A DNA stretch of 64,000 nt from IMG/VR virus record IMGVR_UViG_3300045988_108148. One strand, 5' to 3'. Positions 2,431 to 63,158 of the stretch are shown piece by piece. Both the position numbers and the translations under genes were made by a program. The stretch's first letter is position 1. Every line of letters starts with the position of its first letter. Under the pieces are notes generated by a model. The model was not told the DNA's origin. It worked only from the letters and a program-made list of their open reading frames with translations, and ran no database searches. The DNA comes from a virus.

Positions 2431-2496
2431 TTCAAAATAATTGGAACTTATTATGGAAGTTGACGTTTATAATAGTGAGTTTAAAAATTTACTATT

Positions 2497-3123: not shown

Positions 3124-3135
3124 CAACAAAATACT

Positions 3136-3888: not shown

Positions 3889-3896
3889 AAGTAAAC

Positions 3897-4607: not shown

Positions 4608-4608
4608 T

Positions 4609-23307: not shown

Positions 23308-23347
23308 TTATCAAATTATATATAAATCAATTAAATTATAAATCATT

Positions 23348-24292: not shown

Positions 24293-24297
24293 TAAGA

Positions 24298-24304
24298 AAG
24301 GAGG
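24298..24304 (+). promoter_or_regulatory. Shine-Dalgarno-like AAGGAGG 5 nt upstream of ATG 24310
   Basis: Read directly from the sequence. It is unusual because the other starts I checked in the window lack SD-like sequence. Confidence 0.5.
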
Positions 24305-24309
24305 CGATT

Positions 24310-26976: not shown

Positions 26977-27044
26977 TACTAAAAGACATTCGGAGCTTAT
27001 GAACATATTAGATAGTTCGGAATGGGTTAATAAAGAAGATTATT

Positions 27045-36993: not shown

Positions 36994-39900
36994 ATGGAAA
37001 CATCTATATTAGACAAATACAATGCTGGTTTAATTCCTTCTAAAACCAATGCCACTACTGCCGCTATACGGCAAGTAAATGCACAGCATTCCCCTTTAAC
37101 AAAAATTAAAACAGGGTACGATCGTGAATTGGAACAAACTCCAATTGATGATTATGAAGAAATGTATCTATTGGACAAAGAAAATCCAGAGGAAACTCTT
37201 AAAGATAAGAGCTACTTAAAAGATGCATGGACCACTTTTATGAATAGTAGAGATCAAATCAATCTAATGTCGGAAAGAGCTAAATTAGCTAAGGATATAA
37301 ATCCCGTATTAGATGATATTGATTATGAATTGAATTTTCTTAGTGATAAGCAAAAGCTTAAAAATCTTGAAAATACTATTCCTACTTTGGATGAGAATTC
37401 TGAAGAATACAAAAATGCAATATCTGAATATTTTCAACTTCAAAGAACATTAGCAGATAGACAAGAGCAATACGATAGCATCTTGTCTAAATATGGTGAA
37501 AAAGAGGGTGATAACATTGATGCGAGAATTGAATATCTAAGTAATTCTAGAAAATCGTGGGAAGAAGAAAGATCTAAAGTAAATGAAGAAATAAATAATA
37601 TATACTCTAACTTACGAGAAAGATCTGAAAATTATACACCGTCTTCTGAATTTAGAATAAAAGAACAAAGAGCTCAAGACAAACCTTGGTATTCCCCAGA
37701 TTATTTCTTATACGCTGGTCCAGGTTTAACAGGTTCTTCTATGGCAACTGTTAATGGTTATATTGCAGATGCTTTAGCTACTGGAGCTTTATGGTTAGGT
37801 AGACACTATGCTACTACTGGAGCATTGAACGCTGTCCCTGGAATTGGTGCTGCATCTAATCTAATTGGGTGGGGTAGTGCAATTGCAGCTACTGCAGCTA
37901 GTGTTGCTGGTAATATATACAGTAGACATAGAGAATCTTTAGCTCAAGTATATGGTGCGTATAGATCTAGAATTGAAGATAGTTTAAAGGAACAAGGTAT
38001 TGACATTAAACAATATGCTGAAATTGGTAGAAACCAGTTAAAACAACAAGACCCCAATATAGATGTTTCTAAGATCTCTGATGATGAGATAATAGATAGA
38101 GTTATATCTGGAGAGATAAACATAAATGATGCAACTCTAGCAAATGCTAAAAGATCTTTAAAAGATGGATTAGAAAGAGTTTATGATAACAACATGGCAT
38201 TATCTGCTATGGATGTTGCTCAATCTGCTTTAGTATTTGCACCTCTTGGTAAAGCTATGGGTAAAATAATAACAGCTCCAATTAAAACTGCTTTAAACCC
38301 ATTGTTAAAAACAGGTACGAAATTAAGCGAAGCTGCAGCAAGTAAATATAACAAACTTATAGACGCTTATACTGGGTTTAATGCTAGACTTGCATACAAT
38401 TCCCCAGTAAAAAATGCTAGTTTACAAGCTGCTAAAGCACTTGGTAGATTAGGTTTCTCTGCTACTGGAGAAGCATTTGAAGAAGCTAACCAAGACATAT
38501 TTGATTATGATTATATTTCTGGTAAGTATGATAAAAAGTCTAGCAGTGTCTTTCAATCCTTAATGGGGTTAGCTGATGCCAACTATCGTACTGCAAAGAT
38601 ATTATCTGGAATAGATACTGAATCTGAATTAGCAAATGATCCACAATTTTGGAATGATGTAAAAGGTGGTTTTGCATTAGGTTTATACATGGGTGGACCT
38701 ACAATTGCTTATCATTCTGGGTTAAAGACTTACAAAGACATGACTGCCAACTCTTTTGTAAGAGACGTAGTTGCAGATCACATTGGTAAAAAAGATGCAA
38801 TGATCAAAGCTATGTCCTACTCTGAGATGGCAAACAAAAAATTAAACTATCAACAAAATGTACTTGATGTACTTGAAAACTACAAGTACAATCTACCAGA
38901 AGGTATCACTGAACAAGATTTAAATGATGAGATAGCTACTGCAAATAATATCTTTAGTTTATCTAAATCTAAAGTAAATCAGAACATTGGTAAAACTATT
39001 GGTTATAATCCTGGGACTACTGAATATAATACTTTAATTGGGTTGCAACACTTGGCAACAATAGATGCACAAGAAGCACTTGACAATGCCAATCAAGCAC
39101 AAGAGGCAGACAATGCTTTCTATACTACTTTGGAAAATGATCAAATGTTAAATCATTATTCTCCAGAAGAGAAGCTTACTGCTGTTGCATTAACTAAGTT
39201 AAACATTCAAAAGCAAGCATTAGAACAATTAAAAACAGCACTCGAATCTAAGCCAGAAGAAAATCAACAAAAGTTTGGTATAACGAATGAGTCAAATGCT
39301 GTTGGTAAATCTATTTCAAAAGAAATACCTAATATATTAAAAGACATAGATGCTAAACTAAATCAATTATCAGAAGGTACTAGATTCAGTTCAAACTTCA
39401 TAGCCACTCCAAATTTGGTTAACAAAGGTATTGATAGTTATGTCAACACAATGATTGCAAATCATGACCTTTTGGTAGCTGAGCATAAGATGAACGAAAT
39501 ATTCGGCAATACTTTGGAAGATGGCAAACTTATAAACTTCAACAACGCTTCTAATGAATCAAAAAAGAATATAGGTAAAAAGATAAAAGAAAGAATTGAT
39601 AATTATATAAACAATTCAGATGAAGCATCAAAGATAGTAGAAGAAAATGCAAAGGATGTTGTTGAAGCAGAATCTGCAAAAGAAATGTCTAGAGAAGCAG
39701 CTAATCAAAGTGATGATCAACAACCTATTACTAACAACGAAACTCAAGTAGATAATCAAGTAGCTACTGAAGTAGAGCAAGAAAAGGCAACGTCTCCAAA
39801 AACTCCTATTATGGATGACAGGGCTACTTCTGACATTGATACTAAAATACCAGTAGTAGAGAAGGAAATAAAAGAAGATGAAGAATTTCCTACTAAAGGA

Positions 39901-42900
39901 TTAGAAGAGTTAAGTAAGGAGTTTGAAGAAACCTTAGCCAAAGTAAAAGAAAAAAAACAAGAAGATACTGAAAGGAAACCTAAACCTGAGCCTAAACCAG
40001 TTGTTGAAACTCAAGAAGACGAAGAGGATGAAATAGAATTTGAGCGAGCTGATGAAAAAGCTCTGATAGATCTTGCAAATTCTGAAGCTGTTTCAGACGA
40101 GGATGATAAAAAAGTATCTGAAACTTATGAAACTTCTAATCCTGAAGTAACTGAAGAATCTCAAGTAAAATGGGCCCGTAAGAAGATTGCTACAGAATCT
40201 AAAATGAACAGAAGAGCAGATATGGACTCTGAGACTAGAGATTTGGATGAATCTTTAGAAATTGAGGAAATGGTACAAGATAAAGTATCTCATACACTGT
40301 TCTTTAATCCTGATGCTACAACGCCTATTTATCCTGGTACCAAGCCAGGCAAGGAATTAGCAGAGAGAATAAAAGATCCAAACTTTTTTAATGATAGTTT
40401 CTGTGAGTTTGTTATAAATAAAGATTATACAGAAAAGGGGCATAAACCATATAAAGAAAATGATCCTAGTACATATGATTCTGCATCTATAATAATGTTA
40501 ATTCATCATGGCACTGGCGATTATGCAATGGCTTTGAAAACTCCTTCTGGAGCTAGAACTTTCTTAGCAGCAAAATTAGCTAGCATACCTAAAGAAAGGC
40601 TTACAGAAGAGGATATTAATCTTATTAATAATGCTAATGATTTATCTATAGCAGATTTACGTAGATTTAGAAATGCAGTAATTTCTACAATAGAGTCTGC
40701 GACAAATGATGAAGCTGTAGTACCTAGCACAATAGTTAGAACTAAAGGAATACCTAATGTTGTTAGAAAAGATGGTAGAGCTGTATTCAGACCAATACAC
40801 GAAGTAAAAGGCTTACAGATACCAACAGAAATTACTGAGATTACTCCAGAAAATGTAACATTTGGTATAAGTGATGGTATTGTAAAAGATTCTGATATAA
40901 TAGGAGCCAATGGTGAAATGTTGCCAGGTAAAGGTGGTAGTGGACAATTGTTTATTTATCCACCAAAATCTAGTACTTTATCAAATCAAATGTTGCCATT
41001 ACAATTAACTCTTCAAAGATTTGACAGGAAGCAAGCTGAGTTTTTAGCTGACTTGTTAATCAATTATGGCACTAATACTAACTCTGAATATAGAGATACA
41101 GGAGTTATTGCTGGAGAATTAATTGACTTTATGGTTAGATTTGGAGATGCTACCAAAGTAACCACTGCAGATAAAACATTTGATTGGTTAAAAGAAAAGC
41201 AATTGTATATTGATGATAAATCCAATCTAATAGTTGGTGAAAAAACATTCAATATAGGCAATTTATCTACTCAGGATAAAAAAGACATAGTTGAAGCTTT
41301 AATGGGATTCCATTGGCGTGTAGCTAGAAAGAATTTCTTCAGCCCAATAAAAGAAGCATTACCTTCTGTATATGATTATTTTAACAATAATTCTGTTGAT
41401 TTGCTTGATATCATTCCAGGTATATCTCTTACTAAGGATGATTTCATTTCTTCTACCCCAGTTTATACTATGGGTGTGTTAGAAAAAGCTGGTATAATAA
41501 GAAGTGACTTAGATGATCAACTATTTAAAGATTCTTTCGCATATGCTGAAGATGTTCAAAAGATACCAAGAAAGATCAATAATCCTGAAGTAAAAGAAGC
41601 TGTTGAAAATAAAGCCAGTTCGTTACCAAATATTCCTAGCACCCCAGAACCACAGACAGAGGTTACTGAAGATGTTACGACTTCTGAAGTTACAACTCAA
41701 GATGATTCTTACATAAAGGAAATAACTAATGATGGAGAAATAGATCCTTTGAGTTTGGGAATTGATGAAGATTTTGATGTACCTTTTCGTAAAGTTGCAG
41801 GAAATATATCAGAAGTAGTAACTCCAGAAGAAATTCAATGGTTTAGAAATAAATTAGGATTACCAGAAGATTCTTTACATATCGTTGAAGATGCTATTGC
41901 ACTTGGTGGTAATGAGTATGCTATGGGTCTTGTTAGAAAAGATTCTACCATACTGTGGAAAGGTGCAGAACGTGGTACATTGTATCATGAAGCATTCCAT
42001 AGAGTATCATTATTAACTATTTCTCCAAAGGAAAGAAAGAAAATTTATGAATTCTATAGAAATAGAACTGGTTTTGTTGGAAGTGATAAACAAGTAGAGG
42101 AAGCTTTAGCAGAAGACTTTAGGCAGTATATGCTAAATAAAGTAGATCCTGAATTAAATCTTCTTAAAAGAGCTTGGAAAGCTATTAAGAATTTCATAAG
42201 TAAATGGGTTTGGAGAACCGATACTAGTATTGATAATATTTTTAATAGAATCGATTCTGGTTATTACAATAGATCTAAACAAGATTCGGCTGCTGTAAAT
42301 GAATTTCTTGCTGCATATAAAGGTGCAGGTGCTCCATTTAAAATAAGAAACCACAAATTTAAAAACATTACTAACACACAATTCAAAGAAACTGTAAATT
42401 CACTTGTAGGTGCTTTATTTACATTAAATAACATAAGACTACGTGATGATTTGCAAAATCTTAATTATGGAGTGTTAAAAGCTGCATTAAAACCAGAAAT
42501 AACAGCAAAGTTAGTTGAAAAAGGAACTATTACTAAGGAGCAAGGGGAAGTTAGAAATGAAATATACAATACATTTGATACTGTATTTAAACCAGAAATT
42601 ATAAATAAATTAAATGAGTATCAAATAAGAGCAGTGGATAAGCAGGAAAATATTGATGCAGAGATTGATGAGAAAGCAGTTGGTAATGATGTAGGTGATC
42701 AGATGGCTAACTACATTCAAGAACAATTGGCTGTTTCAGTTAAAGATAATGCTCTTGCATCTATAAAGATTTTCATTGCAACAATGCCTAGGACAGAATT
42801 TGTCATGAAACAAAAAACAAATCCTGATGGCACTGTGACTCAAGTACAAGGTGTTGCTGCAATAAAGAGTCCTGTTACAGGCTTACCTCTAATGGTTGAC

Positions 42901-45900
42901 TTTGATAAATCTTGGAATACAATTATTAATGAAATTCACTCTGAAAATACATTCAAAGGAATGATGGACAAGAGTGCAAAACTTGCTAAAGTAACACCAT
43001 TATTTAAAACTTTGTATAATGAGTTATACAAGATTACAAATGAATATGTACAAAAGAAAGGTATTCAAGAGGACGAAGTTCAAAAAATAGCAAGAGAGAA
43101 TTTACAAACTCAGTTTAGAAACACATTCCGTAAAGCTAGACACAAGTTAGTTGGTATTTTATCAGAAAAAGTTGAAGATGAAAACGGTAATGAACAAACT
43201 AACTTGTATGTTAAAGATGAAAATGCAAATAAAGTATCTAAAAATATATTAGAGGGTTGGAATTACAATTTAATAACAAACAGTGGTGTATTAGATACTT
43301 CTGATAACTTATTTAAAGCAAAAGTTAGTGAGTCTGAAGAATTCGTAGCTAGAGAAATCAACAATGAATTCAATAAAATAATAAAGATTGTAGAAAAATA
43401 CAAAACTACACCTAACAAGAAACTAGTAAATGGTCAAACTTATAAAGAGTATGTACCAGAGAAGTTAATTACTATTAAGAATAAGATAGTTGATTTACTT
43501 AATAAAGTTGGAGTAGAAATTGATTTAGAATCATTAAACTCCTTCCTTACTAAGGAATATTATAATTCAGATTCTACTGAGTCATTAGTTTCAATGTTAT
43601 CAGATAGATCCAATAAAGGTATATATTTCTTCTTTAATTCTAAAGTAAAGGACTTAGCAAAGATTCAAGAAAGTGGCGTAGTTCCTGGTCAATATAATAG
43701 AAGTATTACAAAATATTATGATGACTCTAAATTCTTAGGAAGACTTGCTGAAACATATGCAATGTTGCATCCTTCTTCTGATGAATTATCAGTATTATCT
43801 ACTGATGGTAAATTGTTGTATCCTATATCAGAACACAATTATTTGTCTGACATGGTTCAAAGATTGGATAATGACCCAGCAACAGTAGAAGCACTTACCA
43901 AAGTATTATACAATACTGGTAATAATACCAATCCTAATTACTTCAAGGGTTCTGTATTGTTAACAAATTTATATAATAATGCAGATGCTAAAGGTAAAAT
44001 AGGATTTGAAACTCTTGTTTATTTTAAAGAACAAGGTAGTGCAGATAAAGGACGTAAGTACACAGAAATATCCCCTCTTGAAGACTATATTGCTAAGATG
44101 ACATTCACTAGAGCAGGTAGAATTATCTTACCTACTATGGGTGATTCTCAAACATATAATACATTATATGGTACTGCAATAAACAACTTTAAAAATCCAT
44201 TTGACGTAAGTAATGGTGAAATAAAATTCGATGCTCAAATTCTTAAAAGATTTATTAATTACTTTGAAACTGAATTAGATACCATTGAATTTAATTACAA
44301 GAATGAAAATAATTTAACTGAGGAACAAAAAGTAAAGAACTATGATACAGGAAATAGAAATGGTTATAGATTCAGATACTTCAATGGATTCTTTAAATTG
44401 AAAGAAAGACCTACGTTAAATGGTATTGAATTTGAAAAAGATTTTTCGAACTTTAACGAAGCATTAGACCTAGCAGAAGATCTTGGTGGTAATGAATATG
44501 GAACTTCTATTATTTCTCAAATAAGAAATAATTGGAATAAGTTCAGTAATGCTGAAAAAGCAAATCTAATGAATAACTACCTGTGGGATGCATTTAAAGA
44601 TGAGTTAAATTATGCACAAGAATTAGGTATAATTAAATGGGATGGTAATAAAATAGCTAGTGTAACGAGTTTAGCATTGCCCCAGAAGGCATTAGAAGAA
44701 GCATCATCACATTATAAAAAATCTGCAACAGTTTCTAATTATAGCGAAAATCTTGGTGCTGCTGAAATGATTGGTAATTATTTTGCTAATACCATTTCTT
44801 CAGTAATTGAATTTGAGAAACTTTTTATAAAAGATCCAGCCTACTACAAAAATCCTGTAGATAAAATTAAACGTTTACGTGAGGTATTATCCACTGGTGT
44901 TACTCCAAGAATAGACTACGAAGAAGGAAATACAATGGCAGATCTCACTGAAGTGAACGTAGGTACACTATCAGATAATGTTATCGTAAGTAGACAAGCT
45001 GATCAAATTGCAGAGTATGCTAAAAGATCTGCGGCTATACGCTTGCTTCAGGAAATGCACAATATGACATTAGATGAGGCAATTAGAACTTACGATAGTT
45101 CTGAAGCTTTACCTCAGGATGTAGAAGATGCAGCTAATCTTATAGTAAGAGATAAATTTAATGGTTATCTTAATCCAAAAGGTAAAGTAAACCAAACTGA
45201 TGCCACAGTACTAATATCTCCAGAGTTTTATAAAGAACTAGTACGTAGAGTAGATGGATGGACACCGCAAGTAGCAAAAGCATTTGACTTACTTAATGAT
45301 CCAAATGCAGATCTTGAAGCAGATATGGATACGTATGCAGAAGCATTGGCGGTTACATTGAAACCTTTGAAATTCATGTATTTTGGTGATCATTACGATG
45401 TAGGTGCTAAAAGGGATATACCAATATTTGATAAGATGGCTATGTTCCCTGTACATCGTATCTTCTCTACTGGGGACATGGGTAAAGTATTGGAAGTTAT
45501 GCAATCACGTAATATCCATATGCTTGCTTTTGATTCCGCAGTAAAAGTAGGACAAAGGGCTAAAGAAGTTAAATCAAGAATCTATAAAGATAAGACTAAT
45601 AAAGAAATAGACATGGACAGTCTGATGTCAATGCCTACTCACAAACAATCTTTGGCTAACTTTAGACGTCAGTTAATTACTGATCCTCACCATGCAGAAA
45701 GACAAATGTTTGTATCTCAAGCACAAAAAGCTGCCATGGGTAATATCAGAAGTGCATGGAAATATACTACACCAGATGGTAAAGTATATAATGGTGATGA
45801 GTTGATTAATAATTTTAACGGTGCTCACAATGCCATTACTGAAGCTGGTAGAAGAGAGATAGAAAGAGATTTTGGTATTACTCCAGATAAACCTCAAGTA

Positions 45901-48900
45901 AGTGTACAAAGATTTGCTGAAATTATGCAACGCAAAGCTTTAAGTTCAAACATGAATGACAATGTTATTAATGGTTTGGATGTTGAAAATGGTGAAACTG
46001 TTGCACCAATTTCTGGTTTATCTGATAACTCTTGGATAGAAAGTGGTCTTATATCAATGTTGAATAAGTCAATTGTTGATACTAACTTACCAGGTGGTAT
46101 GTTTATTCAAATGTCTTCAATATTGTACAATAGAATTGCTGTAACTTCAGACGCACAAAATGAAAGAAAGCTAAGATTTGCAAACACTGATGGTACTATG
46201 GATTGTGTTATTTCAATTAACTTATTGAAACACATAATTCCTGATTACGATAAAAAGACTTTCAGTGAAGCTAAAAAGTGGTTGATAGATCATGATATTG
46301 TTGGTCCGAATTCTAAAGCTCTTGCAATGGGTTATCGTATCCCTGCTCAAGGTCAAGCATCAACTGCAGCTCTTAAAGTGGTAGATTTGTATCCTGAACA
46401 AATTGGTGATACTATTACATTACCTGATGAATTTACATCTCTTACTGGTTCTGACTTCGATATTGATAAATTGTTCGTTGCTAGATATAACTATGATAAA
46501 AACGGTAATAGAATCAAATTTGAGACTAAAGAAGATTACACTAACAGACTCAGAGAAGCTGGCTTAGATGATGAAACCATAGTTCGTAAAGTCTACGAAA
46601 GATATAATGGTAAAACTGATTTTGAAGCTAATTCAAAGGAAGCAAATGAAAATATGCTTCTTGATATGTATATATCAGTTATTTCTAACCCACTGAACTT
46701 TGCAGAAGCTAGACAACCACTAGATACAGTAACCGATTACTTAAAAGATACTATTCTTAAAGAAGTAGATACAATAACTGGTCAAGGTAAACGTACAAGC
46801 AAATCCCAACTGTATTATGCCACTCCAGCATTCCAGAGTAGAACTAAGGCAGAGTTGAATGGTGGTAAATTTGGTATTGGTCCATTTGCATTAGCAAATG
46901 CTCATCAAGTTCTTACTCAATTGGTCAAATTAAGATTTAAACCAAATAAAATTTTAAGAGACTATGGTATAAGCAATTTGTATGGTATCCAGAGTAATGA
47001 TAGAAATAAGATTAATATCCTTGACTGGTTATCAGCATTAATCAATGCTCATGTGGACGTTGCAAAAGATCCATACATCATTCGATTGAATGTAAGGAAG
47101 TTAACATTTAATATGACTAACTTCTTGATAAGATCTGGTAAAGGTGAAAGTACATTCTATTTCTTACCTCAACAAATATTAAAAGACTTTGCAATAGAAT
47201 ACGATAAATACTCTGGCTTTTATAATGTAGATACACAAAACAAAAATCCTGAAAGTCTAGCATATAGAACTATTTGGAATACATATTTTGAGAAAGCAAA
47301 ATCTTTATCTAAAGGTAAATATGATCAGCTTTTAGACTTTTTGAATGATAAAGGTGTAGGTGTTAAACAAAGAGAAAAGATGTTCGATGTCAATTACTTA
47401 AAGAAGCAATTGAAAAAAGAAGAAACATTTGATTGGTACTACAATCAGTTGCTCATTATGAAGACTTATCAAGAACTTAATCCGTTCTCAAGATCTTTGT
47501 CTGAATTAACTACATTGTCTCAAATTGATACTAAGCGCTTTGGTAATAATTTTGGTTTACAAAGTGCATTCTTGGATAAATGGAAACAATTCATGGTAGA
47601 GCAACAAGTATTTGAAGATCCTATAAAGGTATTCTCAAATACATTCTTAGGTAAGAAAATGCAAGATGCATTAATATTCCCTAGAATTGCCTTCCAAAAC
47701 ACAATGATTAGACTTACTCCAGAATTTGAAAACTTAAGAACATTAATAGAATTCTATACTAAAGGTTATGCAATTAGTGATGATACATACATTAATAATA
47801 TTACCAGAAGTATGGAAGCTACGTATAAAGCTGGTTTCTTTAATAAGTATTTAGCTGAAAATGGAATAAAGCTCAGTAGTTTGTTAGGTGGTCCAAATAG
47901 TATCTCTAAGAGATTGGATAGAATTAAATCTGATGTAAGAAGTGGCAAATATCCAGATTTATTAAGTAGTGATGGTTCATTTGAAAATGTACTTATTAAT
48001 AACATCTTTAGTAGACCAAAGGAAGATACAACTGAATTAAATGGTCCTGATTTTATTGCTTACAAACCAAACAAGAGTGGTGATAATAACTTAGAAAATG
48101 AGATCATTAGAGCTTGGGAGGAATTGTGGGATAGTGATTATCAGGAAATAAGAGATTTTGCAAAAGATCTTGCATTGTATGCTTTCTATACTTCTGGTGA
48201 TGCATTTGGTAAGAATAATATCTTTAGATATGTACCTAATTCAATCAGAGAGGAAATAGGTTATTTTGATTACATTAGAGATTTAGAACGAAATCCTGAT
48301 GATGCAGTTAAAGATATTAAAGTATTCCAAGTAATAAAAGACTTGTGGTGGAACGACCACGTAGTTCCTACTATTGATTATTACGTATTAGATTCTAGTA
48401 GAGAAACTATTGAAGAAGAAGGTAGACCTGTATACAGGGCGTTACCTCACGAAGATAGTGGTTTTACTGTAGTAAACAAGAAAGGAGTAGAAGTACAAAT
48501 TCCTGGCATCATATATGATAAAAAGTCTCAATCTATAATTTCATTCAATCAAAATGGTCAACCTATATATCCACCATTTAAAAAAGTAAAATTAGATAGA
48601 AATAATGATCCTAGAACTACGTTCCTGTATGAGTACATAGGCATTAATGAAGATGATGCCCCAGTGTACAGATTGATTAACAAGAAGGGAATGAGTTATA
48701 GAGGAAACATATTAATTGAGAGTGGTAGAAATAGATCTGTTCTTAAATACAACAATGTTGTACCAAAGGGTTATGAAATTATGCCAGAAGAACAAATAAC
48801 TTGGGTTACTGATCTTACTCCGGTAAAAGCTAGCTTACAAGCAAAGGCATTTAATCAAGCTGGTGAATTTAATACAGACATGCTTGCTAATATACAGCAA

Positions 48901-51900
48901 ACGGTTAAAACTCAACAAGCAACTGAACCATTATCTTATCAAGAATGGGTTAAAGACTATCAAACTCAAAAAGGTGAAGCTGATGCAGAAGCGGCATATC
49001 AACAATATCTGGATAACTTTGAGTACAGTAGATCACAAGAAACACAAGATATAAATAACTCTGCAAATACTGATAATGATCCTGCTAATTTTAATGATGC
49101 TTCATCAAGTAAAGCAATAATAAGTAGTAATGCAACAATTCTCACAAACGAAGAATTAAGGAAACTTAAACCTTTTGTAGGGAATAACCCTAGAATTGGA
49201 GTAGCTTCTGAATATACTGATCCCGCATTCTTTAGTAAACAGATAATAAGGGTTTTAAATGGTGAAGAAGTGATATCAGATAAATTTGGTAGAACTTTTT
49301 CTGGAACGGATTTCAATGCTTTATATATAATTACAAAGCACGATGGTCTTCCAATTGAGAACTTGTTGAAACACAAAATACCTAAAATAATTCATTTTAG
49401 TATAACTGGATTGGGTGGTACAAAATATGAGCCAGGAGTAATGAAACCTAATGATTTACTTGATAGAATTCAAGCTATGTTAAAATTAGGACTTGACCCA
49501 GAATCTGTTACAATACGAATAGATCCTATAGTTCCTGGTGTAACTTCCACAAAAATGATAGAGAATATTGTAAAGCGTGCTTCAGAAATGGGCATTAAAA
49601 CAATACGTTTCTCTATAATGGATCAATACAAGACTACCAAAAAGTACATGGAGGAATTAGGATACGATTATTCTAAGTTCTATGATGGTGTATCTATGCA
49701 CGCTAGAGATGACGTACGTGAACAAATAGAGACATTTATGGACTCTCTTATAGATAAATATGGAGTTACGATGTCTACTTGTGCAGAACCTCTTTCATCG
49801 AATAGTAGAATTAAACGTGATGCATGTTTGTCCGTAAATGCTGTAAACAACATGTTAGGCACAAATGTACCTCAATCTGCTGGTACAGGTAAACGAAAAC
49901 TATGTTCTTGTTTTGGTGGTAAAACTGACTTATTGAAATATGATAATGTGTGTGCATCTAGCTGTGCTTACTGTTATGCTCATCATAATAATGATAACAT
50001 TCTTAAATATTATAATGAAGATGGTTCATTAAAAGATATACCTCTTACCAGAGTGTCTAAAATTGATGAACAGTCTCCAGTACAACTAAATGCATCTGAA
50101 CAACCCACTACACCTGCAGTAGAACAACCAGCAATTACTGACACTACTAAAGGATTTTCTCTAGAACCGTTTATAAATAAAATATTTCCAGATTGGAAAT
50201 CAAAACTTCCAAATTTGCCAGAGGAATTAGCTGCTGAATTCATGTCATGGAGTATTGTACCTGGGATAGATGAGTGGTCAATAAAAGATAGAATTGAGAA
50301 ATATAAAGATTTTGAAATCGAAGAAGAAACACGGGAAGCAATAAAACGTGGGGATAAAGAAGGAATTGTTCAAGGTATTGCAAACACAATTTCTTATGAA
50401 TTGGCTAAGGATGGAATCACAGAAAGAGATCTATTTATAAATTTATTTGGTCAAAGTTATGTAGATAAGGTAGACAGATATGTTGCTGAAATCAAAGCCG
50501 AAGTTCAGAAAGAAAAAGATACTACTAAGGAATTCTTAGATTATGCTAATCAATTTGGTTTTACTGATGAAGCTGCTTCACTTGCAAAAGACTTACCAAA
50601 AGCAGTTGAAGAAGCTAAGAAAGTAGAAGAAGAGTACGTATTTACATTTAATGATGGGTTTAAGATCAATTTACCATTCTCATTAAATGATCAACAGAAA
50701 TCAGCTCTATATGAATTAGAGAAGTTTATTGAAGATGGTGGAACTGAAATTACTTTATCTGGTTATGCTGGTACAGGTAAATCTACTATCATTGGTATAT
50801 TTAGTAAGTGGTTGAATAATAGAATTGGTAGAGGCAACATTGTATATACTGCTCCTACTCATAGAGCAAATGTTATAACTAAACAAAATAATCTTAATGC
50901 TAATGTATATACGCTTTCTGCTCTATTTGGGTTTACTCCAGATACAGATATAGCAATGGAACAAGGTTCATTGGATTTAAGAGAACTGGAGTTTAGAGCC
51001 AAGAATCAAATGAAATACGAACCAGGTCAATTAATTATCATTGATGAAGCTTCAATGGTACAAGATGGCTTGTATGAATATATTCAAGAAATTGTAGCTA
51101 AACATAACGGTAGTGTAATATATGTTGGGGATTCTGCACAATTGAGACCTGTAAAATCAGATCATATTTCTAAAGTGTTTACATCTGATGGAGTACCTCA
51201 AATAACTTTAACCAAAGTAGAAAGAACTGGTGATAATCCTATTTTAAAAGAAGCCACCAGACTTAGACGAGGTGAAGGATTGAGTTACCAAACTGATATA
51301 AATGATAAAGGTCAAGGAGTATTGTACACTTCGGATGATGCAATTATAGATAAAAACCTGAAACAGATTGTTACTTCTGAAGAGTTCAATGCTGATCCTT
51401 TACATTTTAGAGTATTGACTGCTACAAATGCTGCAGCATCTACATATAATTCAAAGATTAGATCTTTGAGATATGGAAAATTTGCTAAACCATTTGTAAA
51501 AGGTGATATTATAATGGGGTATTCAAACAAACTCAGAAAACCCGATGGATCTTATAGATTAATAAACTCTGGAGATTATATAGTTCAAAGTGTAAAGGAT
51601 ACCAACATTAAATTCAAAACCGATAAAGGGGATATAGAATTTAAAGCATTCAATTTATCAATTAGACCGACTGGTGGTACTATTATGGATGACTTTCAAC
51701 TTACTGTAATTGACAAAAATGAACCAGATTCTAAGCTATTTGAAGTAGTAGAATATAAAGATAGATTGTGGAAAATGGCTAAAGAAGCTAAACAAAATGG
51801 GCAAATATCTAAATATAGAGATTTAGTTCAAATGGCGTACAATGTTGACAATGAACTGAATATTACCAAGAATTTGGAAGATAACCAAGGCAGGTTAAAA

Positions 51901-52263
51901 ATTAGAAAAGCAATTGATTATGGATATGCACAAACTGTTTGGAAATCACAAGGTAGTACGTACAGTAAAGTTTTAATACTCTCCAATGAAATTGATACGT
52001 TTGGTTATGGTAAAGATGTAATGCAATTAAGAAATGAGTTGAGATATGTAGCTGTGTCACGTGCTAAAAACTTTGTTATAATAAATTCAGAAGCAGAGAA
52101 TAAGAAGAAAGTTTCTATGCGAAATGAAATAGCCGAAGAAGATTTATTAGACGATATAGAATTTGAACCAGCTACAGAAGAACAAGCAATAAATGCATCT
52201 TTGCAGGATTCAATTGATGAGTTAACAGCAAATGGTAAACAACGTAGAAAAGAATGTGAATAA
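36994..52263 (+). CDS. giant multidomain virion protein (5089 aa) containing crAss-type two-barrel RNA polymerase, zincin motif, DUF1848-like Fe-S domain and SF1B helicase
   Basis: An uninterrupted 15.27-kb ORF. The motifs are listed as sub-features below. Confidence 0.85.
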   Translation: METSILDKYNAGLIPSKTNATTAAIRQVNAQHSPLTKIKTGYDRELEQTPIDDYEEMYLLDKENPEETLKDKSYLKDAWTTFMNSRDQINLMSERAKLAKDINPVLDDIDYELNFLSDKQKLKNLENTIPTLDENSEEYKNAISEYFQLQRTLADRQEQYDSILSKYGEKEGDNIDARIEYLSNSRKSWEEERSKVNEEINNIYSNLRERSENYTPSSEFRIKEQRAQDKPWYSPDYFLYAGPGLTGSSMATVNGYIADALATGALWLGRHYATTGALNAVPGIGAASNLIGWGSAIAATAASVAGNIYSRHRESLAQVYGAYRSRIEDSLKEQGIDIKQYAEIGRNQLKQQDPNIDVSKISDDEIIDRVISGEININDATLANAKRSLKDGLERVYDNNMALSAMDVAQSALVFAPLGKAMGKIITAPIKTALNPLLKTGTKLSEAAASKYNKLIDAYTGFNARLAYNSPVKNASLQAAKALGRLGFSATGEAFEEANQDIFDYDYISGKYDKKSSSVFQSLMGLADANYRTAKILSGIDTESELANDPQFWNDVKGGFALGLYMGGPTIAYHSGLKTYKDMTANSFVRDVVADHIGKKDAMIKAMSYSEMANKKLNYQQNVLDVLENYKYNLPEGITEQDLNDEIATANNIFSLSKSKVNQNIGKTIGYNPGTTEYNTLIGLQHLATIDAQEALDNANQAQEADNAFYTTLENDQMLNHYSPEEKLTAVALTKLNIQKQALEQLKTALESKPEENQQKFGITNESNAVGKSISKEIPNILKDIDAKLNQLSEGTRFSSNFIATPNLVNKGIDSYVNTMIANHDLLVAEHKMNEIFGNTLEDGKLINFNNASNESKKNIGKKIKERIDNYINNSDEASKIVEENAKDVVEAESAKEMSREAANQSDDQQPITNNETQVDNQVATEVEQEKATSPKTPIMDDRATSDIDTKIPVVEKEIKEDEEFPTKGLEELSKEFEETLAKVKEKKQEDTERKPKPEPKPVVETQEDEEDEIEFERADEKALIDLANSEAVSDEDDKKVSETYETSNPEVTEESQVKWARKKIATESKMNRRADMDSETRDLDESLEIEEMVQDKVSHTLFFNPDATTPIYPGTKPGKELAERIKDPNFFNDSFCEFVINKDYTEKGHKPYKENDPSTYDSASIIMLIHHGTGDYAMALKTPSGARTFLAAKLASIPKERLTEEDINLINNANDLSIADLRRFRNAVISTIESATNDEAVVPSTIVRTKGIPNVVRKDGRAVFRPIHEVKGLQIPTEITEITPENVTFGISDGIVKDSDIIGANGEMLPGKGGSGQLFIYPPKSSTLSNQMLPLQLTLQRFDRKQAEFLADLLINYGTNTNSEYRDTGVIAGELIDFMVRFGDATKVTTADKTFDWLKEKQLYIDDKSNLIVGEKTFNIGNLSTQDKKDIVEALMGFHWRVARKNFFSPIKEALPSVYDYFNNNSVDLLDIIPGISLTKDDFISSTPVYTMGVLEKAGIIRSDLDDQLFKDSFAYAEDVQKIPRKINNPEVKEAVENKASSLPNIPSTPEPQTEVTEDVTTSEVTTQDDSYIKEITNDGEIDPLSLGIDEDFDVPFRKVAGNISEVVTPEEIQWFRNKLGLPEDSLHIVEDAIALGGNEYAMGLVRKDSTILWKGAERGTLYHEAFHRVSLLTISPKERKKIYEFYRNRTGFVGSDKQVEEALAEDFRQYMLNKVDPELNLLKRAWKAIKNFISKWVWRTDTSIDNIFNRIDSGYYNRSKQDSAAVNEFLAAYKGAGAPFKIRNHKFKNITNTQFKETVNSLVGALFTLNNIRLRDDLQNLNYGVLKAALKPEITAKLVEKGTITKEQGEVRNEIYNTFDTVFKPEIINKLNEYQIRAVDKQENIDAEIDEKAVGNDVGDQMANYIQEQLAVSVKDNALASIKIFIATMPRTEFVMKQKTNPDGTVTQVQGVAAIKSPVTGLPLMVDFDKSWNTIINEIHSENTFKGMMDKSAKLAKVTPLFKTLYNELYKITNEYVQKKGIQEDEVQKIARENLQTQFRNTFRKARHKLVGILSEKVEDENGNEQTNLYVKDENANKVSKNILEGWNYNLITNSGVLDTSDNLFKAKVSESEEFVAREINNEFNKIIKIVEKYKTTPNKKLVNGQTYKEYVPEKLITIKNKIVDLLNKVGVEIDLESLNSFLTKEYYNSDSTESLVSMLSDRSNKGIYFFFNSKVKDLAKIQESGVVPGQYNRSITKYYDDSKFLGRLAETYAMLHPSSDELSVLSTDGKLLYPISEHNYLSDMVQRLDNDPATVEALTKVLYNTGNNTNPNYFKGSVLLTNLYNNADAKGKIGFETLVYFKEQGSADKGRKYTEISPLEDYIAKMTFTRAGRIILPTMGDSQTYNTLYGTAINNFKNPFDVSNGEIKFDAQILKRFINYFETELDTIEFNYKNENNLTEEQKVKNYDTGNRNGYRFRYFNGFFKLKERPTLNGIEFEKDFSNFNEALDLAEDLGGNEYGTSIISQIRNNWNKFSNAEKANLMNNYLWDAFKDELNYAQELGIIKWDGNKIASVTSLALPQKALEEASSHYKKSATVSNYSENLGAAEMIGNYFANTISSVIEFEKLFIKDPAYYKNPVDKIKRLREVLSTGVTPRIDYEEGNTMADLTEVNVGTLSDNVIVSRQADQIAEYAKRSAAIRLLQEMHNMTLDEAIRTYDSSEALPQDVEDAANLIVRDKFNGYLNPKGKVNQTDATVLISPEFYKELVRRVDGWTPQVAKAFDLLNDPNADLEADMDTYAEALAVTLKPLKFMYFGDHYDVGAKRDIPIFDKMAMFPVHRIFSTGDMGKVLEVMQSRNIHMLAFDSAVKVGQRAKEVKSRIYKDKTNKEIDMDSLMSMPTHKQSLANFRRQLITDPHHAERQMFVSQAQKAAMGNIRSAWKYTTPDGKVYNGDELINNFNGAHNAITEAGRREIERDFGITPDKPQVSVQRFAEIMQRKALSSNMNDNVINGLDVENGETVAPISGLSDNSWIESGLISMLNKSIVDTNLPGGMFIQMSSILYNRIAVTSDAQNERKLRFANTDGTMDCVISINLLKHIIPDYDKKTFSEAKKWLIDHDIVGPNSKALAMGYRIPAQGQASTAALKVVDLYPEQIGDTITLPDEFTSLTGSDFDIDKLFVARYNYDKNGNRIKFETKEDYTNRLREAGLDDETIVRKVYERYNGKTDFEANSKEANENMLLDMYISVISNPLNFAEARQPLDTVTDYLKDTILKEVDTITGQGKRTSKSQLYYATPAFQSRTKAELNGGKFGIGPFALANAHQVLTQLVKLRFKPNKILRDYGISNLYGIQSNDRNKINILDWLSALINAHVDVAKDPYIIRLNVRKLTFNMTNFLIRSGKGESTFYFLPQQILKDFAIEYDKYSGFYNVDTQNKNPESLAYRTIWNTYFEKAKSLSKGKYDQLLDFLNDKGVGVKQREKMFDVNYLKKQLKKEETFDWYYNQLLIMKTYQELNPFSRSLSELTTLSQIDTKRFGNNFGLQSAFLDKWKQFMVEQQVFEDPIKVFSNTFLGKKMQDALIFPRIAFQNTMIRLTPEFENLRTLIEFYTKGYAISDDTYINNITRSMEATYKAGFFNKYLAENGIKLSSLLGGPNSISKRLDRIKSDVRSGKYPDLLSSDGSFENVLINNIFSRPKEDTTELNGPDFIAYKPNKSGDNNLENEIIRAWEELWDSDYQEIRDFAKDLALYAFYTSGDAFGKNNIFRYVPNSIREEIGYFDYIRDLERNPDDAVKDIKVFQVIKDLWWNDHVVPTIDYYVLDSSRETIEEEGRPVYRALPHEDSGFTVVNKKGVEVQIPGIIYDKKSQSIISFNQNGQPIYPPFKKVKLDRNNDPRTTFLYEYIGINEDDAPVYRLINKKGMSYRGNILIESGRNRSVLKYNNVVPKGYEIMPEEQITWVTDLTPVKASLQAKAFNQAGEFNTDMLANIQQTVKTQQATEPLSYQEWVKDYQTQKGEADAEAAYQQYLDNFEYSRSQETQDINNSANTDNDPANFNDASSSKAIISSNATILTNEELRKLKPFVGNNPRIGVASEYTDPAFFSKQIIRVLNGEEVISDKFGRTFSGTDFNALYIITKHDGLPIENLLKHKIPKIIHFSITGLGGTKYEPGVMKPNDLLDRIQAMLKLGLDPESVTIRIDPIVPGVTSTKMIENIVKRASEMGIKTIRFSIMDQYKTTKKYMEELGYDYSKFYDGVSMHARDDVREQIETFMDSLIDKYGVTMSTCAEPLSSNSRIKRDACLSVNAVNNMLGTNVPQSAGTGKRKLCSCFGGKTDLLKYDNVCASSCAYCYAHHNNDNILKYYNEDGSLKDIPLTRVSKIDEQSPVQLNASEQPTTPAVEQPAITDTTKGFSLEPFINKIFPDWKSKLPNLPEELAAEFMSWSIVPGIDEWSIKDRIEKYKDFEIEEETREAIKRGDKEGIVQGIANTISYELAKDGITERDLFINLFGQSYVDKVDRYVAEIKAEVQKEKDTTKEFLDYANQFGFTDEAASLAKDLPKAVEEAKKVEEEYVFTFNDGFKINLPFSLNDQQKSALYELEKFIEDGGTEITLSGYAGTGKSTIIGIFSKWLNNRIGRGNIVYTAPTHRANVITKQNNLNANVYTLSALFGFTPDTDIAMEQGSLDLRELEFRAKNQMKYEPGQLIIIDEASMVQDGLYEYIQEIVAKHNGSVIYVGDSAQLRPVKSDHISKVFTSDGVPQITLTKVERTGDNPILKEATRLRRGEGLSYQTDINDKGQGVLYTSDDAIIDKNLKQIVTSEEFNADPLHFRVLTATNAAASTYNSKIRSLRYGKFAKPFVKGDIIMGYSNKLRKPDGSYRLINSGDYIVQSVKDTNIKFKTDKGDIEFKAFNLSIRPTGGTIMDDFQLTVIDKNEPDSKLFEVVEYKDRLWKMAKEAKQNGQISKYRDLVQMAYNVDNELNITKNLEDNQGRLKIRKAIDYGYAQTVWKSQGSTYSKVLILSNEIDTFGYGKDVMQLRNELRYVAVSRAKNFVIINSEAENKKKVSMRNEIAEEDLLDDIEFEPATEEQAINASLQDSIDELTANGKQRRKECE
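37714..37923 (+). other. glycine-zipper/hydrophobic membrane-active segment of giant protein
   Basis: AGPGLTGSSMATVNGYIADALATGALWLGRHYATTGALNAVPGIGAASNLIGWGSAIAATAASVAGNIYS. Confidence 0.6.
41986..42000 (+). other. HEXXH zincin metallopeptidase motif (HEAFH, aa 1665-1669)
   Basis: Context GAERGTLYHEAFHRVSLL with downstream EEALAEDFRQY as a possible third ligand or Glu helix. Confidence 0.55.
46453..46467 (+). other. DxDxD catalytic motif (DFDID, aa 3154-3158) of double-psi beta-barrel RNA polymerase
   Basis: The context MGYRIPAQGQASTAALKVVDLYPEQIGDTITLPDEFTSLTGSDFDIDKLFV parallels the NRAPTLH...NADFDGD region of beta-prime. This motif type is known from crAss-like virion RNAPs. Confidence 0.8.
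49189..49990 (+). other. DUF1848-like Fe-S (radical-SAM/SPL-related) domain, aa about 4066-4332
   Basis: The ordered motifs are VASEYTDPAFF, IITKHDG, IHFSITGLGG, RIDPIVPGV, IRFSIMDQYK, STCAEP and GKRKLCSCFGGKTDLLKYDNVCASSCAYCYAHHN. They match the DUF1848 pattern (ASRRTDIPAF...FWTK...RYDPI...ETCAE...CGC...C..C.YCYAN). Confidence 0.65.
50670..52090 (+). other. SF1B (RecD/Dda/Pif1-like) helicase domain, aa about 4560-5035
   Basis: Motif I GYAGTGKST, Ia VYTAPTHRAN, II LIIIDEASMV, III VIYVGDSAQLRPV, V YAQTVWKSQGSTYSKV, VI LRYVAVSRAKNFVII. Confidence 0.85.
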
Positions 52264-52265
52264 TT

Positions 52266-61456: not shown

Positions 61457-61660
61457 ATGATATAAATTTGAATAAGTGCAATGTGGGGTAACGATCCCCA
61501 CGAATCTAACCATTAGACATTGCTCCACCTTTAACAATACCCCCTGTGTGGTCAGTGCCAGCCTACGATCTGGTTCTCCTGGTGCGCTATCATTGAAGTA
61601 TTTATCAATATGCTAAGCGTGAGAAGTCTTCGTTCTATTGCGCAAATAGAATTTATATTT

Positions 61661-62299: not shown

Positions 62300-62316
62300 C
62301 TTCTTCTATGTTTTGG

Positions 62317-63060: not shown

Positions 63061-63158
63061 AATGTTAGTCTATCTACTTCTCAGAAAAATTTGAAAGAAT
63101 TTGATATAGTTTTTGAAAAGTTTTGTAAAAATTCTGAAAAGATTTGTTATAAGTTAAA

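What the first reader, a model, noticed from the sequence alone, without database searches (positions are those of the whole stretch)
36994..52263. A 5089-aa single ORF fuses the virion RNA polymerase with protease, Fe-S and helicase modules
One uninterrupted ORF combines five elements. (i) N-terminal coiled coils and a glycine-zipper hydrophobic segment (nt 37714-37923). (ii) An acidic/Lys-Pro low-complexity linker (about nt 39840-40130). (iii) An HEAFH zincin motif (aa 1665). (iv) A two-barrel RNAP with DFDID (aa 3154) in a beta-prime-like context. (v) A DUF1848-like Fe-S domain (aa about 4066-4332) and a complete SF1B helicase (aa about 4560-5035). As I recall them, crAss-type virion RNAP proteins are roughly 2000-2500 aa, so this gene would carry about 1800 extra N-terminal and about 1100 extra C-terminal residues. 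It sits among genes for proteins expected to be packaged and ejected. That suggests a transcription, DNA-unwinding and Fe-S enzyme toolkit injected with the genome.
Basis: partly seen in the sequence, partly recalled or inferred. Interest (0 to 1): 0.85.

Follow-up and report, generated by a model that had tools for sequence, protein, structure and literature searches.

The report
crAss RNA polymerase with swappable enzyme tail
The 5089-residue gene is real and is the normal giant virion RNA polymerase gene of one family of crAss-like gut phages; its tail carries accessory enzymes, here an iron-sulfur enzyme and a helicase, that closely related phages swap for other modules.

Summary

Profile and structure searches support three modules:
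- the RNA polymerase (RNAP), homologous to phi14:2 gp66, with an identical catalytic loop TGSDFDIDK;
- DUF1848;
- a complete SF1B helicase.

The "zincin" rests only on a conserved HEAxH...E motif.

The gene is not an outlier. The window is about 96% identical to crAss-like phage cr50_1 (Suoliviridae). In that family the RNAP genes run 4300-5800 aa. In 123 giant relatives the median length is 4467 aa and the maximum is 6953 aa. The literature already notes "huge polyproteins".

The new point is that DUF1848 is not a fixed part of the gene. It sits in a cassette slot between the RNAP and the helicase. Relatives with 93-99% identical flanks carry A1S_2505, cpYpsA+NADAR, DUF1848+NADAR or DUF1848+ART-like there. 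Across about 25 crAss-type contigs, at least 8 module types follow the RNAP in about 15 different orders in the same ORF. Junctions show about 15 nt of microhomology. All modules are under strong purifying selection (DUF1848 dN/dS 0.02).

My best reading is a virion-packaged "polyvalent" cargo protein whose tail delivers strain-variable, probably counter-defence, enzymes. This is a new variant of a known kind.

The parts
36994..52263 (+). Whole 5089-aa ORF: the Suoliviridae-type virion RNA polymerase polyprotein
   Evidence: About 96% nt identity to cr50_1 gene KNV26_gp059.
37312..37578 (+). aa 107-195: amphipathic, coiled-coil-like segment with the strongest heptad-type periodicity of the protein
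   Evidence: This was a crude Fourier test only.
37699..38283 (+). aa 236-430: Gly/Ala-rich 'glycine-zipper-like' segment (aa 236-312) plus a second hydrophobic segment (aa 401-430). These are the only hydrophobic stretches of the protein. A membrane or ejection role is inferred.
   Evidence: aa 225-685 is the best conserved N-terminal stretch among Suoliviridae.
39631..40293 (+). aa 880-1100: acidic low-complexity spacer with a Lys-Pro repeat (ERKPKPEPKP)
   Evidence: D+E 30%.
41815..42363 (+). aa 1608-1790: conserved HEAxH...EExLAExF region, a putative gluzincin-like metallopeptidase. HEAFH lies at nt 41986-42000.
   Evidence: - H1665, E1666, H1669, E1703 and A1706 are invariant in 8 divergent sequences.
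- 1185 cluster representatives share the region.
- There is no Pfam, PDB or hhalign support.
42877..48843 (+). aa 1962-3950: two-barrel RNA polymerase homologous to phi14:2 gp66. The catalytic DFDID lies at nt 46453-46467.
49047..50125 (+). aa ~4018-4377: DUF1848 cassette. It is a Fe-S, radical-SAM-like TIM-barrel-type domain with seven conserved Cys at aa 4263-4327, including CxxxCxxC. It is strain-variable: absent from cr50_1 and L005.
50140..50529 (+). aa 4383-4512: 126-aa helical module of unknown function ('linkX'), bracketed by a ~15-nt imperfect direct repeat GAYACTACTAARG (peptide DTTK). It is absent from cr50_1 and L012.
50656..52113 (+). aa 4555-5040: complete SF1B (Dda/RecD2-like) helicase
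52114..52263 (+). aa 5041-5089: acidic C-terminal tail ending in a basic stretch with a single conserved Cys (..GKQRRKECE), then the stop codon
   Evidence: 90 of 123 relatives have a Cys in the last 10 residues.
52266..56426 (+). Downstream 1386-aa gene: homolog of phi14:2 gp65 (RNAP-associated virion protein). It starts MQCLN and has no HExxH.

Best explanation
**What it is**

The ORF encodes the Suoliviridae (crAss 'delta' group) form of the virion-packaged RNA polymerase, built as one giant 'polyvalent' cargo protein.

From N- to C-terminus it contains:
1. an amphipathic, Gly/Ala-rich hydrophobic region, inferred to help membrane passage or ejection;
2. an acidic disordered spacer;
3. a conserved HEAxH...E metallopeptidase-like region, inferred to act in self-processing or encapsidation;
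4. the two-barrel RNAP homologous to phi14:2 gp66 (shown by homology);
5. a C-terminal array of accessory enzyme modules;
6. a conserved basic, single-Cys end.

In this phage the array is DUF1848 (seven conserved Cys, radical-SAM-like, nearest solved fold spore photoproduct lyase), then a 126-aa unknown module, then an SF1B helicase.

**Shown**
- The array is a recombining cassette system.
  - Near-identical genomes carry different modules in the same slot.
  - At least 8 module types occur in about 15 different orders behind the RNAP across the family.
  - Junctions share short linker repeats.
- Every module is under purifying selection.

**Inferred**
- gp66-type RNAPs are packaged and ejected (shown by others for phi14:2 and crAss001). 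So the tail modules would be delivered as protein at the very start of infection.
- There they most likely protect or repair the incoming DNA and neutralise host defences. NADAR is a validated anti-DarT enzyme. ART-PolyVal and SLOG are conflict-associated domains. DUF1848 also occurs as an accessory of a defence-associated reverse transcriptase.
- The helicase may instead, or also, help early transcription or replication.
For: - **Real gene, independent assemblies:**
- **RNAP homology and catalytic loop:**
- **Family norm of giant size:**
- **Cassette slot within one species-level lineage** (flanks 93-99% identical):
  - window, L003: DUF1848-linkX-HEL
  - L012: DUF1848-NADAR-HEL
  - L004: DUF1848-ART-like-linkX-HEL
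  - L005: cpYpsA-NADAR-linkX-HEL
  - cr50_1: A1S_2505-HEL
- **Family-wide combinatorial arrays in the same ORF as the RNAP:**
- **Microhomology at junctions:**
- **Purifying selection:** dN/dS is 0.023 for DUF1848, 0.09-0.14 for the helicase and 0.04-0.055 for the RNAP. dS is about twice as high in the tail modules as in the RNAP.
- **DUF1848 features:** conserved Cys, confident model, nearest fold SPL at TM 0.38-0.40, weak radical-SAM NCBIfam hits, PADLOC DRT accessory.
- **Packaging of RNAP-associated proteins:** PMC10172136 and 10.1101/2020.03.07.982082.
- **Polyvalent-protein concept, with N4 vRNAP fused to a metallopeptidase (MPTase) and ART:** PMC5512222.
- **NADAR as phage counter-defence:** PMC11825919, PMC11543638.
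Against: - There is no direct evidence that the tail modules are packaged, ejected or active in the new host.
- Cargo must pass a channel of less than 50 A partly unfolded (PMC10172136). An Fe-S cluster would then be lost and need rebuilding. The rest of the polyprotein is almost Cys-free, so DUF1848 is an odd passenger.
- DUF1848 has no known function. Its link to the radical SAM superfamily is weak: TM about 0.4 and sub-threshold HMM hits.
- The zincin fold is unproven here. N4 vRNAP, which has an MPTase domain, is packaged unprocessed (PMC5512222). So cleavage is not a given.
- The helicase is kept in all six same-species variants and is the only SF1B helicase in cr50_1. That fits a core role rather than a variable effector role.
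Confidence: 0.6

Rival explanations
1. Fixed transcription toolkit. The helicase, and perhaps DUF1848, work with the RNAP on the incoming genome. They would unwind DNA to give the single-stranded or melted template the polymerase needs.
For: - The helicase is complete.
- It is retained in all six same-species variants.
- It is the only Dda-like helicase detected in cr50_1 and cr118_1.
- The related eukaryotic polymerase QDE-1 needs a helicase and RPA on DNA templates (10.1101/2020.03.07.982082).
Against: - DUF1848 is missing from cr50_1 and L005.
- Several Suoliviridae giants have no helicase in the tail: cr109_1, cr10_1, cr125_1, cr130_1.
- The helicase lies before or after other modules in no fixed order.
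- phi14:2 gp66 is an active RNAP without such a fusion.
Confidence: 0.2
2. The tail modules act late in the producing cell and are not delivered. For example, they might treat phage DNA before packaging or help assembly, and may be clipped off by the metallopeptidase.
For: - The gene is in the late or structural block.
- An Fe-S domain is hard to reconcile with ejection in an unfolded state (PMC10172136).
- P1 DdrB-type polyvalent proteins are cleaved before encapsidation (PMC5512222).
Against: - A conserved C-terminal basic/Cys end follows whatever module comes last. That suggests the tail stays part of the functional protein.
- The precedent of the polyvalent-protein family is delivery with the DNA.
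- There are no data either way for crAss phages.
Confidence: 0.15
3. The DUF1848 segment is a selfish insertion (intein-like or homing element) or decaying junk with no function for the phage.
For: It is an in-frame insertion or replacement relative to cr50_1. Delta-group crAss phages are rich in inteins and introns (PMC7886860).
Against: - dN/dS is 0.023.
- Seven invariant Cys are present.
- The cassette does not end in His-Asn followed by Cys/Ser/Thr, and no Hint or endonuclease domain was detected.
- The same domain recurs in more than 25 crAss tails.
Confidence: 0.03
4. Assembly chimera or sequencing artefact that joins separate genes.
For: None found. Some related contigs are fragmented by frameshifts (L004, L005) or by a 100-N gap (L003).
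Against: - cr50_1, cr118_1, L012 and L022 have uninterrupted giant ORFs.
- L003 and L012 reproduce both DUF1848 junctions in frame.
- The chance expectation for the ORF is log10 P of about -190.
Confidence: 0.01

Closest known systems
phi14:2 gp67-gp66-gp65 and PhiCrAss001 gp47/gp49/gp50 (crAss-like virion RNAP and associated cargo proteins)
   Same: - aa ~1960-3950 are homologous to gp66, with an identical catalytic loop.
- The downstream gene is homologous to gp65.
- The position is the same: at the end of the structural block, next to the opposite-strand replication genes.
- Total coding length is comparable: 6475 aa here against 5398 aa in phi14:2.
   Different: - Here the upstream part and the RNAP are one ORF.
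- The HExxH motif lies upstream of the RNAP, not in the gp65 homolog.
- No sequence similarity to gp67 was detectable.
- About 1100 aa of accessory modules follow the RNAP.
Polyvalent proteins of phages and conjugative elements (Iyer et al. 2017, PMC5512222), including N4 gp50 vRNAP
   Same: - It is a giant multidomain protein encoded with virion genes.
- It carries a polymerase for early transcription, an HExxH region and variable effector domains (ART-PolyVal occurs in relatives).
- It shows extensive mosaicism.
   Different: - The polymerase is a two-barrel enzyme, not T7-like.
- The module pool (DUF1848, NADAR, SLOG/cpYpsA, DUF7831, A1S_2505, SF1B helicase) is largely absent from that catalogue.
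- The HExxH region does not match the MPTase-PolyVal profile.
Thermus phage P23-45 tape-measure-fused virion RNAP (10.1101/2022.12.01.518664)
   Same: A two-barrel virion RNAP embedded in a ~5000-aa ejected protein.
   Different: The fusion partner there is a tail tape measure. No variable enzyme array is reported.
Orphan NADAR counter-defence genes of T4-like phages (PMC11825919)
   Same: NADAR modules occupy the same slot as DUF1848 in sister genomes (L005, L012).
   Different: In T4-like phages NADAR is a free-standing expressed gene. Here it would be delivered pre-made as part of the RNAP protein. The window itself has no NADAR.
Spore photoproduct lyase and COG1533-type radical SAM 'DNA repair photolyases'
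   Same: This is the best solved structural neighbour of the DUF1848 model. DUF1848 has a CxxxCxxC cluster and gives weak HMM hits to the PA0069 and Rv2578c radical SAM families.
   Different: - TM is only 0.38-0.40.
- The Cys motif is C-terminal rather than N-terminal.
- Four extra conserved Cys are present.
- There is no Radical_SAM Pfam match.
- The substrate is unknown.

Membership tests
crAss-like two-barrel virion RNAP (phi14:2 gp66 family) | Significant sequence homology to gp66 across the catalytic core | tested here: met
   PDB 6VR4 gives E 1e-34 in 3 stretches. blastp gives E 4e-44 over ~1400 aa. tblastn hits 142 crAss-type records.
crAss-like two-barrel virion RNAP (phi14:2 gp66 family) | Catalytic DFDxD loop aligned with that of gp66 | tested here: met
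   TGSDFDIDK is identical and aligned with gp66 residues 1358-1366.
crAss-like two-barrel virion RNAP (phi14:2 gp66 family) | Position in the 'transcription block', next to a gp65 homolog and the virion genes | tested here: met
crAss-like two-barrel virion RNAP (phi14:2 gp66 family) | Presence in virions and RNA synthesis activity | not testable with these tools
   Shown only for phi14:2 and crAss001 homologs (10.1101/2020.03.07.982082; PMC10172136).
SF1B helicase (Dda/RecD2-like) | Profile match and helicase motifs I, Ia, II, III, V, VI | tested here: met
   - AAA_30 E 3.5e-24, UvrD_C_2, PHROG 325 E 8e-71, RecD2 E 4e-25.
- Motifs: GYAGTGKS 4590, TAPT 4619, DEASM 4684, GDSAQLRP 4712, YVAVSRA 5018.
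- Motif V (WKSQGST) was read from the sequence.
DUF1848 (PF08902) | Pfam match above the gathering score, with the C-terminal Cys cluster | tested here: met
   79.6 bits against a cut-off of 30.5. Seven nearly invariant Cys including CxxxCxxC.
Radical SAM superfamily | CxxxCxxC motif | tested here: met
   C4320, C4324 and C4327.
Radical SAM superfamily | Profile or fold match to a radical SAM core | tested here: inconclusive
   - There is no Radical_SAM Pfam hit.
- NCBIfam PA0069 and Rv2578c hits are far below their cut-offs.
- Foldseek's best TM is 0.38-0.40, to spore photoproduct lyase, among generic TIM barrels.
Zincin / MPTase-PolyVal metallopeptidase | HExxH plus a downstream Glu ligand, conserved | tested here: met
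   H1665, E1666, H1669 and E1703 are invariant in 8 divergent sequences. The spacing to DFDxD is conserved, with a median of 1482 aa.
Zincin / MPTase-PolyVal metallopeptidase | Profile or fold similarity to a known zincin family | tested here: not met
   - No Pfam hit for the window (E up to 1), or for the 8 family members scanned singly (E up to 5).
- No PDB profile hit.
- hhalign against the phi14:2 gp65 HExxH region gives probability 0.8%.
- The AF2 model is too poor to search, at pLDDT 55.
Polyvalent proteins (Iyer et al. 2017) | Several unrelated enzymatic domains in one polypeptide, encoded with virion or late genes, with mosaic architectures | tested here: met
Polyvalent proteins (Iyer et al. 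2017) | Delivered into the host with the DNA | not testable with these tools
   Inferred from the packaging of gp66-type RNAPs.
Intein | C-terminal His-Asn followed by Cys/Ser/Thr, plus a Hint domain | tested here: not met
   The cassette ends ..PAITDTT|K. No Hint or endonuclease Pfam hit was found.

The most novel reading that the evidence does not exclude
The C-terminus of the crAss-type virion RNA polymerase may be a recombination-driven, strain-specific 'payload rack'. It would inject ready-made counter-defence enzymes ahead of any phage gene expression. On this reading DUF1848 would be a previously unrecognised Fe-S enzyme that repairs or unmasks phage DNA attacked by host defences. The same domain also serves on the host side in a DRT system.
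Probability: 0.4. Interest if true: 0.75.

Novelty: new variant of a known kind. Interest (0 to 1): 0.55.

Why it matters
- **Ecology.** Crassvirales are the most abundant phages of the human gut. What decides their strain-level host range is largely unknown. A slot in the injected RNA polymerase that swaps enzymes between near-identical phages is a concrete candidate for such a determinant. The enzymes include NADAR, ART, SLOG, DUF1848 and a helicase.
- **DUF1848.** The finding gives an orphan domain a testable context: protein-level delivery at the first moment of infection.
- **Annotation.** These genes are labelled 'DNA helicase', 'exonuclease V', 'DprA-like' or 'nuclear pore complex protein-like' in reference records. 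Those names describe one tail module, or nothing real, rather than the RNA polymerase.

Tried and rejected
- **Pfam and PHROGs on the N-terminal 2600 aa.** Nothing useful came back.
- **Zincin fold.**
  - The AF2 model from a 6-sequence alignment was too poor (pLDDT 55), so I did not search with it.
  - The PDB profile search gave only spurious short hits.
  - A Pfam scan of 8 family members gave nothing relevant.
  - hhalign to the gp65 HExxH region was not significant.
- **N-terminal region against gp67, gp65 and the gp66 N-terminus.** hhalign found no similarity. The correspondence to g067 is positional only.
- **Relic of the Cys-Cys gene boundary inside the giant ORF.** None was found.
- **Cellular origin of the DUF1848 cassette.** Only distant archaeal homologs (24-27% identity) turned up. 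The three close 'genome' hits are mis-binned crAss contigs.
- **Intein, homing element and chimera explanations.** Rejected; see the rival explanations.
- **Literature.** I found no paper linking Crassvirales to polyvalent proteins, NADAR or DUF1848. Fig. 3 of PMC7886860 shows 'recognized conserved domains' of these proteins. I could not view it, so some tail domains may already have been drawn there.
- **Pfam on neighbouring ORFs.** No hits.
Full report
**1.

The ORF listing gives one ORF at 36994..52263 (+), 5089 aa, by far the longest in the window; the next longest is 1593 aa. Translation shows no internal stop, with HEAFH at aa 1665 and DFDID at aa 3154. At the window's composition the chance of 5089 open codons is about 10^-190.

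The descriptive elements check out as follows.
- The only hydrophobic stretches of the whole protein are aa 290-308 and 401-430.
- aa 236-312 are Gly/Ala-rich, with small-xxx-small motifs at 26% of positions against 4% overall.
- aa 880-1100 are 30% acidic and contain ERKPKPEPKP.
- A crude Fourier test puts the strongest heptad-type periodicity at aa 107-195.

**2. Which module assignments survive testing**

| Module | Result |
|---|---|
| RNAP | Supported. PDB 6VR4 (phi14:2 gp66) matches with E 1e-34. blastp gives E 4e-44 over about 1400 aa. The catalytic loop TGSDFDIDK is identical and aligned. |
| DUF1848 | Supported. Pfam 79.6 bits against a cut-off of 30.5. PADLOC RTasDUF1848 E 6e-28. |
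| SF1B helicase | Supported. AAA_30, AAA_19, UvrD_C_2, PHROG Dda-like E 8e-71, RecD2 E 4e-25. All helicase motifs present. |
| Zincin | Motif level only. |

On the zincin: H1665, E1666, H1669, E1703 and A1706 are invariant across divergent relatives, and the distance to DFDxD is conserved (median 1482 aa). No Pfam, PDB or hhalign similarity to any zincin was found, including the gp65 region that the literature calls zincin-like. The AF2 model was unusable.

The pattern HExxH-(33 aa)-EExLAExF resembles the anthrax lethal factor type. That resemblance comes from my memory and is not a test.

**3. Identity of the genome and the family norm**

The gene is about 96% identical in DNA to uncultured phage cr50_1 (Crassvirales; Suoliviridae; Cohcovirus hiberniae). 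There the orthologous CDS is 4774 aa and labelled 'DNA helicase'.

| Suoliviridae phage | RNAP gene length (aa) |
|---|---|
| cr109_1 | 4328 |
| cr10_1 | 4460 |
| cr125_1 | 4502 |
| cr50_1 | 4774 |
| cr118_1 | 4946 |
| cr130_1 | 5801 |

Several of these genomes read TAG as sense.

An exhaustive profile search with the HEAxH region found 1185 cluster representatives. Of the top 149, 123 are 2500 aa or longer. Their median is 4467 aa, the interquartile range is 3958-5103 aa and the maximum is 6953 aa. The window's protein sits near the 75th percentile.

[quoted passage not shown] It also states that the genes reach ~6000 aa (PMC10136315).

In phi14:2 the block is split into g067 (1797 aa), g066 (RNAP, 2180 aa) and g065 (1421 aa). 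The window's downstream ORF is a gp65 homolog. The N-terminal ~1750 aa take the place of g067, but no similarity was detectable.

**4. What is new: a cassette slot**

tblastn of the C-terminal 1050 aa showed that cr50_1 matches only from aa 4503 onward. No phage record of 50,697 matched the DUF1848 segment. blastn places the difference at window 49031-50499, which is 1469 nt against 524 nt in cr50_1.

Other assemblies of the same lineage have flanks 93-99% identical but different contents.

| Assembly | Modules between the RNAP and the C-terminal end |
|---|---|
| window, L003 | DUF1848 - linkX - helicase |
| L012 | DUF1848 - NADAR - helicase |
| L004 | DUF1848 - ART-PolyVal-like (weak, E 2e-5) - linkX - helicase |
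| L005 | cpYpsA - NADAR - linkX - helicase |
| cr50_1 | A1S_2505-family domain (E 3e-33) - helicase |

All variants share ..AYQQYLDNFEYS(R/K) on the left of the slot.

On the right, the linkX module is bracketed by an imperfect ~15-nt repeat, GAYACTACTAARG (peptide DTTK). L012's junction is exactly the recombinant of the two copies.

**5. The slot is family-wide**

Homologs of the cassette in the protein collection are tails with shuffled partners: DprA, NADAR, SLOG, DUF7831, cpYpsA and helicase. A scan of IMG/VR and GTDB contigs gave 26 loci.
- In 22 of them DUF1848 lies downstream of RNAP segments.
- In 21 of those, one ORF runs from the start of the fetched locus through the DUF1848 domain. 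TAG must be read as sense in 19 of these ORFs.
- The arrays use HEL, NADAR, SLOG, DUF7831, A1S_2505 and ART in about 15 different orders, with up to six modules.
- L020 shows the DUF1848-SLOG-DOWN tail, but it is cut by the contig end 55 nt before the domain.
- L030 and L036 have the modules at the N-terminus of a giant ORF.
- L033 and L034 are stand-alone DUF1848 genes.

Tails of reference genomes and of further giants add cpYpsA, DUF7831, ART-PolyVal and more helicases.

**6. The modules are functional**

dN/dS against close relatives is shown below.

| Segment | dN/dS |
|---|---|
| DUF1848 | 0.023 |
| RNAP | 0.04-0.055 |
| N-terminus | 0.05 |
| Helicase | 0.09-0.14 |

Synonymous divergence is about twice as high in DUF1848 and the helicase as in the RNAP. 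That fits import by recombination.

DUF1848 has seven nearly invariant Cys. Its model is confident, with pLDDT 81 and pTM 0.82. The best solved neighbour by TM-score is spore photoproduct lyase at 0.38-0.40, among generic TIM barrels. The best viral hit is a piece of the cr272_1 giant protein.

**7. Mechanism**

- **Shown by others.** gp66-type RNAPs are in virions and transcribe early genes. RNAP-associated proteins are capsid cargo that must partly unfold to exit (10.1101/2020.03.07.982082; PMC10172136).
- **Inferred here.** The tail modules travel with the polymerase and act at the first moment of infection. NADAR reverses DarT DNA ADP-ribosylation and is a proven phage counter-defence (PMC11543638, PMC11825919). 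ART-PolyVal is a polyvalent-protein effector (PMC5512222). DUF1848 also appears as an accessory of a defence-associated RT (10.1101/2021.12.02.470933). Strain-level turnover is the usual signature of arms-race genes.
- **Caveats.**
  - Delivery is untested.
  - An Fe-S domain is awkward cargo for a protein that is otherwise almost Cys-free, with 10 Cys in 5089 aa, 7 of them in DUF1848.
  - The helicase is constant within the lineage and is the only SF1B helicase in cr50_1. It may therefore have a core role.
  - N4 vRNAP shows that an HExxH domain need not mean processing (PMC5512222).

**8. Verdict**

- The giant fusion itself is already known for this family.
- The combinatorial, recombining enzyme tail, with DUF1848 as one cassette, is a new variant of the polyvalent-protein theme. 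I could not find it described in the literature I could search.

Noticed in passing
window 52240-52300; also L011 (phi14:2) gene boundaries: The giant ORF ends ..GKQRRKECE, and the next gene starts 2 nt later with MQCLN. phi14:2 shows the same Cys-at-end, Cys-at-start pattern at both boundaries: gp67 ..NTIC | gp66 MACK, and gp66 ..KQECK | gp65 MSCK. 90 of 123 giant relatives have a Cys in their last 10 residues, although Cys makes up only ~0.13% of these proteins. This may be an inter-subunit metal or disulfide link, or a packaging signal.
   Followed up: partly
window 36994-52263: Cysteine is extremely depleted. There are 10 Cys in 5089 aa, 7 of them in DUF1848. cr50_1's 4774-aa ortholog has 3.
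   Followed up: partly
window 26243-27044 (ORF 26236-26976): An ~800-nt insertion relative to cr50_1, between virion genes, encodes a 246-aa HNH endonuclease / endonuclease VII-like protein (PHROG 3377, E 1e-21). It is probably a homing endonuclease.
   Followed up: partly
window 23310-24317 (ORF 23348-24292): A second window-specific insertion relative to cr50_1 encodes a 314-aa protein with no Pfam match.
   Followed up: partly
window 61524-63455: The replication-side genes here are only 73-77% identical to cr50_1, while the rest of the window is 94-97% identical. This suggests a mosaic, recombinant genome.
   Followed up: no
L006, L008-L010, L013-L021, L023-L029, L031, L032, L035, L037: Most related giant ORFs are open only if TAG is read as an amino acid (17-78 in-frame TAGs). 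The window, cr50_1, cr118_1, cr10_1, L012 and L022 use the standard code. L036 is nearly so, with 2 in-frame TAGs.
   Followed up: partly
L030:4112-10496, L036:2731-13086: In two contigs the accessory modules (A1S_2505, SLOG, cpYpsA, DUF1848) sit at the N-terminus of a giant ORF. In L036 an RNAP-like segment lies downstream. The array is therefore not always C-terminal.
   Followed up: no
P0171 (6953 aa): The longest relative carries DUF7831, SLOG and ART-like modules plus a second HExxH (GHEMFH). It then continues into what looks like the downstream gp65-like protein, with hydrophobic C-terminal segments. This may be the full 'three-in-one' fusion.
   Followed up: no
L001 ~24470-24560; P0025, P0026, P0161: A short motif, WS-x-KEGW(S/N), recurs at module borders in several tails. 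In P0025, P0026 and P0161 it is followed by ..F(Y/N)..KV.P and a longer conserved stretch. cr50_1 has only the bare AWSQKEGWS. It may be a small domain and was not identified.
   Followed up: no
L035, L036, L037: Three 26-99 kb contigs filed in GTDB genomes as Bacilli, Anaerovoracaceae and Ruminococcus MAGs carry crAss-type RNAP giants. They are most likely mis-binned phage genomes.
   Followed up: no
GenBank/RefSeq records NC_055868, NC_055872, NC_055892, NC_055900, NC_055901: The RNAP giants are annotated 'DNA helicase', 'exonuclease V', 'DprA-like DNA recombination-mediator protein' or 'nuclear pore complex protein-like protein'. Each name reflects one tail module or a spurious hit and hides the polymerase.
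   Followed up: yes
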